Source of the DNA: Escherichia coli
Lineage (GTDB): Bacteria; Pseudomonadota; Gammaproteobacteria; Enterobacterales; Enterobacteriaceae
NCBI RefSeq assembly: GCF_002854065.1
Contig: NZ_CP024147.1
DNA length: 64,000 nt
Strand: one strand, 5' to 3'
The notes beneath the pieces were generated by a model. It searched no databases. It worked only from the letters and a program-made list of their open reading frames with translations, and had not been told where the DNA came from. Made by a program: the position numbers and the translations under genes. Numbering within the stretch: position 1 is the first letter of the stretch; the number at the start of each line of letters is the position of its first letter. This document shows, piece after piece, positions 61,203-61,238 of this stretch.

Positions 61203-61238
61203 ACCTCATCCTGAGGGGGGCCCCTGTCAGGATGAGGT
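61203..61238. terminator. GC-rich hairpin with 12-bp perfect arms between convergent MFS gene and sapF
   Basis: acctcatcctga-ggggggcccctg-tcaggatgaggt; no canonical U-tract. Confidence 0.45.

What the first reader, a model, noticed from the sequence alone, without database searches (positions are those of the whole stretch)
61203..61238. Strong GC-rich hairpin at the right junction of the efflux block
A perfect 12-bp inverted repeat (acctcatcctga / tcaggatgaggt) encloses a gggggg-cccc core, placed 5 nt after the MFS stop and 8 nt before the convergent sapF stop. It lacks a clear U-tract on either strand, so it may be a bidirectional terminator, an RNA stability element, or a remnant of the recombination junction that brought in the efflux block.
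Basis: seen in the sequence. Interest (0 to 1): 0.3.

Follow-up and report, generated by a model that had tools for sequence, protein, structure and literature searches.

The report
Conserved hairpin ending the sap operon
This is an ordinary, well-conserved RNA hairpin at the end of the sapABCDF operon, wedged against the end of the eef efflux genes; it is not a scar from the arrival of those genes, because strains without them carry the same hairpin.

Summary
A perfect 12-bp inverted repeat (61203-61214 / 61227-61238) surrounds a G6C4 apex, 5 nt after the MFS stop and 8 nt before the sapF stop. It folds at -24 to -27 kcal/mol (z about -4).

The window is E. coli. The efflux block is the published eefRABCD operon, present in about 2040 of 5426 complete genomes; about 3380 carry ycjD instead.

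The ycjD haplotype has a homologous hairpin at the same spot after sapF, with one compensatory T:A to C:G pair. The hairpin arms and 123 nt beside fabI are the only homology between the two fabI-sapF intervals. Five other Escherichia representatives, including E. albertii, also carry it; 74 other Enterobacteriaceae do not. It occurs once per genome and is not on true plasmids or phages.

So it belongs to the sapF side and is not a junction scar. eef looks ancestral in Escherichia rather than imported.

Most likely it is the sap mRNA 3' stem-loop. Its tail is moderately U-rich on the sapF strand (a weak intrinsic terminator or stabiliser) and has no U-tract on the eefD strand. No 3'-end data were found.

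Side finding: in ycjD strains the arms form a promoter-like CTGACA-16-CAGAAT on both strands. The window's version has lost this.

The parts
61203..61214 (.). Left arm of the hairpin, ACCTCATCCTGA. It is the 3' arm in the sapF transcript and the 5' arm in the eefD transcript.
   Evidence: The arm is invariant in all sampled eef-haplotype E. coli. Its homologue ACCTCATTCTGA is present in ycjD-haplotype genomes.
61215..61226 (.). Apex GGGGGGCCCCTG, forming 3 G-C/G-U pairs and a 4-nt loop. Its length varies between strains.
   Evidence: Fold. Alleles seen: G6C4, G7C4, G6TTC4, G6C3 and G6C2, the last being the majority type as in UTI89. The same alleles occur in metagenome contigs.
61227..61238 (.). 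Right arm of the hairpin, TCAGGATGAGGT.
   Evidence: G61231 pairs with C61210, and this pair is A:T in the ycjD haplotype and in E. albertii.
61190..61202 (-). Tail on the sapF transcript, AUUCAUUACUUUU. It is antisense to the last eefD codons and stop.
   Evidence: 4 U in the first 8 and a weighted T score of 1.48. The UTI89-type allele scores 2.49, close to 2.67 for the canonical terminator at 11894-11921. A terminator-like site is flagged on the minus strand.
61239..61246 (.). 8-nt spacer GCAGAACA between the hairpin and the sapF stop. It forms the U-poor tail on the eefD transcript.
   Evidence: 0 U in the first 8, weighted T score 0.01.
61247..62053 (-). sapF, the last gene of sapABCDF. 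The hairpin lies in its 3' untranslated region.
   Evidence: ORF; annotation; Pfam ABC_tran.
60034..61197 (+). eefD, the MFS transporter and last gene of eefRABCD. It converges on sapF.
   Evidence: ORF; annotation; Pfam MFS_1; named in PMC12817139.

Best explanation
The hairpin is the Escherichia-specific 3'-terminal stem-loop of the sapABCDF operon. In this haplotype it lies in the 49-nt gap between the convergent stop codons of sapF and eefD. On the sapF transcript a 12-13-bp stem with a small G/C apex forms 8 nt after the stop and is followed by AUUCAUUACUUUU. I infer that it sets the sap mRNA 3' end by partial intrinsic termination and by blocking 3'-to-5' exonucleases, which also keeps sap transcription from running antisense into eefD. 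On the eefD transcript the same palindrome folds 4-5 nt after the stop but has no U-tract. There it can only act as a pause or collision point, or as a protective 3' hairpin after termination further downstream. It belongs to the sapF-side backbone shared by both Escherichia haplotypes and is not a scar of eef acquisition. The structure, position, conservation and haplotype distribution are shown. Termination and stabilisation activity are inferred.
For: Strong fold on both strands. Position between convergent stops. A homologous hairpin sits right after sapF in ycjD-haplotype E. coli and in all six Escherichia species representatives, whichever gene follows. In the 12-sequence alignment, 86.8% of cells pair, against 35-47% when the partners are slid. 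Pairs 10-36 (UA 8, CG 4) and 17-29 (GC 8, AU 4) are never broken. The stem core is invariant from E. albertii to E. coli, while the spacer next to the stop and the apex diverge. The sapF-strand tail is U-rich in the E. coli eef haplotype, and a terminator-like site is flagged on that strand. Across 80 Enterobacteriaceae, loci with cargo inserted after sapF have a strong hairpin next to the stop in 39 of 46 cases. Where fabI follows sapF directly the figure is 11 of 34; in Dickeya that arrangement is co-transcribed with no internal terminator (PMC9239193). Stem-loops are reported to position RNA polymerase collisions between convergent genes (10.1101/2022.10.23.513370). REP325 is reported to act as both terminator and stabiliser (10.64898/2026.03.23.713779).
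Against: No transcript 3'-end data for sapF or eefD could be found. The U-rich tail is not conserved: the tail is U-poor in E. albertii and A-rich in the ycjD haplotype, so canonical intrinsic termination cannot be the conserved function. The consensus scan flagged only a sub-hairpin, not the full stem, and found 4 such sites against 2.8 expected. The covariation rests on very few independent events among related sequences. Imperfect palindromes can also be symmetrised by template-switch mutation without selection (my knowledge).
Confidence: 0.6

Rival explanations
1. It is a functionless relic at a recombination or deletion breakpoint. On this view the palindrome is merely what was left, or acted as a hotspot for illegitimate recombination, when the fabI-sapF interval was remodelled, and it persists through self-correcting palindrome mutation.
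For: Homology between the two haplotypes stops exactly at the hairpin's outer foot. The apex varies in length. An ISEc13 has inserted inside the hairpin in an E2348/69 derivative with no evident problem. The fabI-sapF interval is an insertion hotspot across the family.
Against: The hairpin is present on both haplotypes and in E. albertii, E. whittamii and cryptic clades. The stem core is invariant while its flanks diverge, and the changes seen in the stem are compensatory. There is no matching repeat at the left boundary. It is not found on true plasmids or phages.
Confidence: 0.12
2. It is mainly a DNA-level promoter palindrome. In the ancestral form the arms supply CTGACA (-35) and TGTCAGAAT (extended -10) at 16-nt spacing on both strands, driving ycjD and an antisense transcript. 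The window's copy would then be a decayed version.
For: The promoter scan flags CTGACA-16-CAGAAT with an upstream TG on both strands in the ycjD haplotype and in E. albertii. A genomic SELEX study lists exactly these hexamers as the constitutive sigma-70 promoter of ycjD (PMC3946193). The spacing is 16 nt in all four ycjD-haplotype sequences aligned, and every listed row of the survey of about 3380 ycjD-haplotype genomes has the same 86-nt match length. Antisense transcription at the ycjD 5' end is mentioned in PMC12817139.
Against: In the window the spacing is 11 nt and the -10 reads CAGGAT, and no promoter is flagged there. Other eef-haplotype species have 14-nt spacing. The SELEX hexamers were assigned by inspection near a binding peak. 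A promoter firing into two convergent gene ends has no obvious use in the eef haplotype.
Confidence: 0.15
3. It is a binding site for a dimeric DNA-binding protein (for example the TetR-family regulator EefR) or a site-specific recombination site.
For: It is a near-perfect palindrome whose primary sequence is conserved in both arms.
Against: The distance between the arms varies from 10 to 17 nt among strains and species, which does not fit a fixed dimer geometry. No related half-sites occur in the eefR-eefA control region. It lies at gene 3' ends. It is single-copy and has no partner site.
Confidence: 0.04

Closest known systems
Rho-independent (intrinsic) terminators of E. coli
   Same: A stable G+C-containing stem-loop a few nucleotides after a stop codon. 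On the sapF strand it is followed by a U-rich stretch.
   Different: The U-tract is interrupted (AUUCAUUACUUUU), is absent on the other strand, and is missing in E. albertii and in the ycjD haplotype. The stem of 12-13 bp plus apex is longer than typical. No 3'-end evidence was found.
Bidirectional terminators between convergent genes (stem-loop positioned RNA polymerase collisions; 10.1101/2022.10.23.513370)
   Same: A single palindromic hairpin in a short (49 nt) gap between two convergent stop codons.
   Different: Only one strand has a U-rich tail. Activity on either strand is untested.
REP elements as 3' UTR terminator-stabilisers (REP325; 10.64898/2026.03.23.713779)
   Same: An extragenic palindrome at gene 3' ends whose hairpin, not a U-tract, is the conserved feature. 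A dual role as attenuator and exonuclease barrier is plausible.
   Different: It is not a REP. It occurs once per genome, and it is restricted to this one locus in Escherichia.
eefRABCD / ycjD polymorphism of the fabI-sapF interval (PMC12817139)
   Same: The same locus and haplotypes. The block next to the hairpin is the published eef operon.
   Different: That paper does not mention the hairpin ('terminator' 0 occurrences; 'hairpin' 3 occurrences, and the two passages shown describe protein hairpins). It reports fragments of eef retained in ycjD strains. My comparison finds only 123 nt on the fabI side and the hairpin arms.
ycjD constitutive sigma-70 promoter CTGACA-16-CAGAAT (genomic SELEX, PMC3946193)
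   Same: Those hexamers are the two arms of the homologous palindrome in K-12-type strains.
   Different: The window's copy has CAGGAT and 11-nt spacing, so it does not meet the promoter pattern.

Membership tests
Intrinsic (Rho-independent) terminator | Stable stem-loop shortly downstream of a stop codon | tested here: met
   -24 to -27 kcal/mol with z about -4. It lies 8 nt after the sapF stop and 5 nt after the eefD stop.
Intrinsic (Rho-independent) terminator | U-tract immediately 3' of the stem, sapF strand | tested here: inconclusive
   AUUCAUUACUUUU has 4 U in the first 8 and a weighted score of 1.48 (2.49 in the majority allele), against 2.67 for a canonical terminator in the window. 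The scan flags only a sub-hairpin.
Intrinsic (Rho-independent) terminator | U-tract immediately 3' of the stem, eefD strand | tested here: not met
   The tail GCAGAACACUAACGG has 0 U in the first 8 and a score of 0.01.
Intrinsic (Rho-independent) terminator | Transcript 3' ends map at the end of the hairpin | not testable with these tools
   No sapF or ycjD entries in the supplements held for three of the 3'-end studies or the TERMITe paper. No supplement was held for the EHEC Term-seq paper.
Bidirectional terminator of a convergent gene pair | Located between convergent stop codons | tested here: met
   eefD stop at 61195-61197 (+) and sapF stop at 61247-61249 (-).
Bidirectional terminator of a convergent gene pair | A-rich 5' flank and U-rich 3' flank, so that both transcripts end in U | tested here: not met
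   Only the A-rich flank (AAAAGTAATGAAT) is present. The 3' flank on the + strand is U-poor.
Structured RNA element under selection | Base pairs kept through compensatory changes across relatives | tested here: met
   6 of 19 pairs change on both sides and two pairs are never broken. 86.8% of cells pair against 35-47% when slid. The caveat is that few independent events are involved.
REP / dispersed palindromic repeat | Many copies per genome | tested here: not met
   One locus per genome in 5421 of 5426 E. coli genomes; the '2 places' are the palindrome matching both strands. There is no second copy in the window. Rfam gives nothing.
Island junction scar or mobile-element end | Absent from genomes that lack the island | tested here: not met
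   A homologous hairpin is present in about 3380 ycjD-haplotype genomes.
Island junction scar or mobile-element end | Matching repeat at the other boundary, or carriage on mobile DNA | tested here: not met
   There is no homologue at the fabI-side boundary. The only plasmid-collection hits are E. coli records typed non-mobilizable (4.9 Mb, 253 kb and 386 kb), one of which is annotated with sapF and the MFS gene under the match, and there are no phage hits.
Sigma-70 promoter | -35 and -10 hexamers at 16-18 nt spacing | tested here: not met
   The window has CTGACA-11-CAGGAT and is not flagged. The pattern is met in the ycjD haplotype and in E. albertii.

The most novel reading that the evidence does not exclude
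The palindrome may be a dual-use boundary element of Escherichia. As RNA it caps the sap operon. As DNA its arms form a symmetric extended -10 sigma-70 promoter (CTGACA-N16-TGTCAGAAT on both strands) in ycjD strains and in E. albertii, possibly giving a leaderless ycjD mRNA. In E. coli eef strains this promoter would have been disarmed by contraction of the slippage-prone G/C apex (spacing 16 down to 9-11) and by the compensatory T:A to C:G change, which spoils the -10 while keeping the stem. One hairpin would then switch between 'terminator only' and 'terminator plus bidirectional promoter' in the two haplotypes.
Probability: 0.2. Interest if true: 0.45.

Novelty: new member of a known kind. 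Interest (0 to 1): 0.2.

Why it matters
The stakes are modest. The result corrects how this locus is read. The hairpin is shared backbone at the sapF end, and the eef/ycjD polymorphism is a replacement of unrelated DNA whose right edge abuts a conserved hairpin. eef was not inserted and leaves no scar here. The hairpin gives a precise landmark for the right breakpoint in studies of eef loss. It also marks a natural element that probably insulates the convergent sap and eef transcription units. The one feature worth an experiment is that the same palindrome reads as a two-way promoter in K-12-type strains but not here.

Tried and rejected
- **Rfam** at a permissive threshold over 60000-62500 gave only noise.
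- **Second copy in the window:** one 1-mismatch match to an arm at 19768 lies inside a coding region with no partner arm, so it is chance.
- **Dispersed repeat or mobile element:** rejected. The element is single-copy in E. coli genomes, and the only plasmid-collection hits are non-mobilizable E. coli records, one carrying the sapF/MFS context. There are no phage hits.
- **Operator for EefR:** no related half-sites in the eef control region, and the arm spacing varies.
- **Experimental 3' ends:** supplements of four Term-seq or Rend-seq papers and one EHEC paper held no sapF or ycjD rows, or were not held at all. A 'sapF terminator' text search gave only the Dickeya operon map.
- **eef remnants in ycjD strains:** sensitive blastn found none beyond the fabI-side 123 nt and the hairpin arms.
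- **Metagenome scan for the arms:** 80 of 120 hits were Escherichia sapF loci. The other 40 came from unrelated, mostly high-GC contigs and look like a separate palindrome family, judged coincidental because the ancestral Escherichia arm is CATTCTGACAG.
- **Classical terminator discriminant score:** not reported, because I could only recall the formula from memory.

Full report
**Observation.** ACCTCATCCTGA lies at 61203-61214 and its exact reverse complement TCAGGATGAGGT at 61227-61238, around GGGGGGCCCCTG.
- The upstream ORF 60034-61197 (+) stops at 61195-61197, 5 nt before the left arm.
- The ORF 61247-62053 (-) has its stop at 61247-61249, 8 nt after the right arm.
- As RNA the 36-mer folds at -27.0 kcal/mol on the + strand and -24.2 on the - strand. 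Z-scores are -4.0 and -4.5, and no shuffle of 200 folds as well.
- Perfect inverted repeats of this size and spacing occur at 7 places in the window, against 0.115 per shuffled window. The feature is real, but it belongs to a common class.

**What the neighbours are.** The window is E. coli. In the closest genome the order is fabI, then a TetR regulator, RND adaptor, RND pump, outer-membrane factor and MFS transporter, then sapF-sapA on the opposite strand.
- This block is the published eefRABCD operon. It is found in phylogroups B2, D, E, F and G and is replaced by the small gene ycjD in A, B1 and C (PMC12817139).
- In my survey, 2039-2043 of 5426 complete genomes carry the eefD-hairpin-sapF arrangement. 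Another 3378 carry ycjD next to sapF.

**Is the hairpin island or backbone?** ycjD-haplotype genomes carry CACCTCATTCTGACAAGA-GATTAAA-TCTTGTCAGAATGAGGTG (written in the sapF sense) between the sapF stop and the ycjD start.
- Its lower 12-13 bp are the same as in the window, apart from one pair that is T:A there and C:G here. That difference changes both arms and keeps the pair.
- A sensitive comparison of the two fabI-sapF intervals (791 nt against 8020 nt) finds only two homologous pieces: 123 nt next to fabI and the hairpin arms.
- ycjD strains are therefore not simple deletion derivatives of eef strains. The two haplotypes hold unrelated DNA between a shared fabI promoter region and a shared hairpin.
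- Homology ends exactly at the hairpin's outer foot. That foot lies 4-5 nt from the eefD stop in one haplotype and abuts the ycjD start in the other.

**Wider comparison.** I took one genome for each of 80 Enterobacteriaceae species that encode a close SapF.
- Only the six Escherichia representatives have the hairpin core CATYCTGA...TCAGRATG.
- Four of the six have it with eef: E. albertii, E. whittamii and two other lineages. Two have it with ycjD.
- Thirty-four species have fabI within 250 nt downstream of sapF. In Dickeya that arrangement is one transcription unit with no internal terminator (PMC9239193). The remaining species carry varied cargo between the two genes.
- Loci with cargo usually have a strong, unrelated hairpin right after sapF: 39 of 46, against 11 of 34 where fabI is adjacent.
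- The simplest reading is that eef plus this hairpin is old in Escherichia and ycjD replaced eef later.

**Structure and variation.** All 16 versions examined fold into one hairpin of -22 to -32 kcal/mol.
- In a 12-sequence alignment, 86.8% of the cells of a 19-pair helix form pairs, against 35-47% when the partners are slid.
- Pair 10-36 is UA in 8 sequences and CG in 4. Pair 17-29 is GC in 8 and AU in 4. Neither is ever broken.
- Eight core pairs are constant from E. albertii to E. coli, while the few bases between the stop and the stem differ.
- The apex is free to vary. Within E. coli eef strains it is G6C4 (the window), G7C4, G6TTC4, G6C3 or G6C2, the last being the commonest. Metagenome contigs show the same alleles.
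- Caveats: the compensatory changes represent very few independent events, some homopolymer lengths could be assembly errors, and palindromes can be symmetrised by template switching without selection (my knowledge).

**Mechanism.**
- *sapF strand.* The stem is followed by AUUCAUUACUUUU. In the commonest allele one more C-G pair extends the stem and the tail is UUCAUUACUUUU. The weighted U scores are 1.48 and 2.49, against 2.67 for a textbook terminator at 11894-11921. The consensus scan flags a terminator-like site on this strand.
- *eefD strand.* The tail GCAGAACA contains no U.
- *Conservation of the tail.* It is U-poor in E. albertii and A-rich in ycjD strains.
- *Inference.* The conserved function therefore belongs to the hairpin itself. 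It most likely marks and protects the sap mRNA 3' end. In this haplotype it probably also terminates a share of sap transcripts, which shields eefD from antisense read-through.
- *Role for eefD.* Here it can only be a pause or collision point, or a barrier against exonucleases. Both behaviours have precedents.
- I found no transcript-end data to test any of this.

**Rivals.**
- *Neutral junction relic.* This fits the boundary position, the variable apex and the ISEc13 insertion inside the hairpin in an E2348/69 derivative. It does not fit the cross-species conservation.
- *Dispersed or mobile repeat.* Excluded: there is one copy per genome and none on true plasmids or phages.
- *Protein operator.* Unlikely, because the arm spacing varies from 10 to 17 nt and no half-sites occur in the eef control region.

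**A side finding.** In ycjD strains and in E. albertii the arms read CTGACA-16 nt-(TG)TCAGAAT on both strands, which the promoter scan flags.
- A genomic SELEX study lists exactly these hexamers as the constitutive promoter of ycjD (PMC3946193).
- The ycjD ATG lies 6 nt after the -10 element, which suggests a leaderless mRNA. K-12 has ATA at that position.
- The 16-nt spacing holds in all four ycjD-haplotype sequences aligned, and the listed survey rows all show the same 86-nt match length.
- In the window the spacing is 11 nt and the -10 reads CAGGAT, so this potential is absent.

**Verdict.** This is a real, conserved and quite ordinary 3'-end hairpin. It is a new member of a known kind, and it is not an acquisition scar.

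Noticed in passing
window 52101-53431: A 1331-bp IS2 copy (IS3-family integrase domains) is inserted between fabI and eefR. It has a 5-bp target duplication AATAT (52096-52100 and 53432-53436) and lies about 250 nt upstream of eefR in the same orientation. It is absent from the otherwise near-identical genome L001. It could alter eef expression.
   Followed up: partly
window 52014-52057: Homology with the ycjD haplotype ends at about 52014. Four nt later the eef-specific DNA begins with a 9-bp hairpin, TCTGTACCG (52018-52026) and CGGTACAGA (52039-52047), followed by GCATTTTG. The eef-specific segment is thus capped by a hairpin at both ends, though the two hairpins are unrelated in sequence.
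   Followed up: no
L002 3951-3981 (ycjD haplotype); L015 4821-4851 (E. albertii): The homologous palindrome reads as an extended -10 sigma-70 promoter, CTGACA-16-(TG)TCAGAAT, on both strands. It matches the ycjD promoter listed by genomic SELEX (PMC3946193). The ycjD ATG lies 6 nt after the -10 element, suggesting a leaderless mRNA. K-12 (L091) has ATA there, and the annotation uses a GTG inside the stem.
   Followed up: partly
L009 1451-3000 (E. coli O127:H6 E2348/69 derivative): An IS4-like ISEc13 is inserted inside the hairpin's left arm with an 8-bp duplication ATCCTGAG. It separates eefD from the rest of the hairpin and from sapF. PMC12817139 also reports an insertion sequence downstream of eefD in Shigella dysenteriae.
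   Followed up: partly
L092, L099, L114, L117, L123, L131, L136, L141, L143, L162-L164, L185, L186, L193, L195, L202, L207, L208 (metagenome contigs): Nineteen of the 40 non-Escherichia matches to the arm pattern are palindromes of the form CCTCATCCTGAGG...CCTCAGGATGAGG on high-GC contigs (57-74% G+C). Many extend further outward. This looks like a separate palindromic repeat family of environmental bacteria. Its resemblance to the E. coli arms is probably coincidental, because the ancestral Escherichia arm is CATTCTGACAG.
   Followed up: partly
L001 9953-11326 (equivalent to window 58652-60025): eefC carries a nonsense codon (W144 to stop) in strain 100416, the closest genome, and is annotated there as a pseudogene. 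In the window it is intact (457 aa). The two sequences differ at only 4 positions across the 10.5 kb from 53441 to 64000.
   Followed up: yes
L010-L089 (sapF loci of 80 Enterobacteriaceae species): The sapF-fabI interval is a recurrent insertion site. In 34 species fabI starts within 250 nt of the sapF stop. The other species hold 0.6 to more than 4 kb of unrelated cargo, usually with a strong hairpin right after sapF.
   Followed up: partly
window 11894-11921, 24901-24929, 26849-26879, 39365-39401, 43842-43867, 44403-44432: Six other perfect inverted repeats of at least 12 bp with short loops. The one at 11894 (AAAAGCCTCCGACCGGAGGCTTTT) looks like a textbook bidirectional terminator. The others were not examined.
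   Followed up: no
L002 3348-3593 (fabI-ycjD spacer of the ycjD haplotype): G+C-rich imperfect palindromic units such as CCCTCGCCCTTTCAGGGTGAGGG and CCCTCACCCTAATCCTCTCCACAGAGGGGCAGGGGG fill the spacer after ycjD. From memory they resemble the BoxC type of E. coli intergenic repeat. They have no counterpart in the eef haplotype.
   Followed up: no
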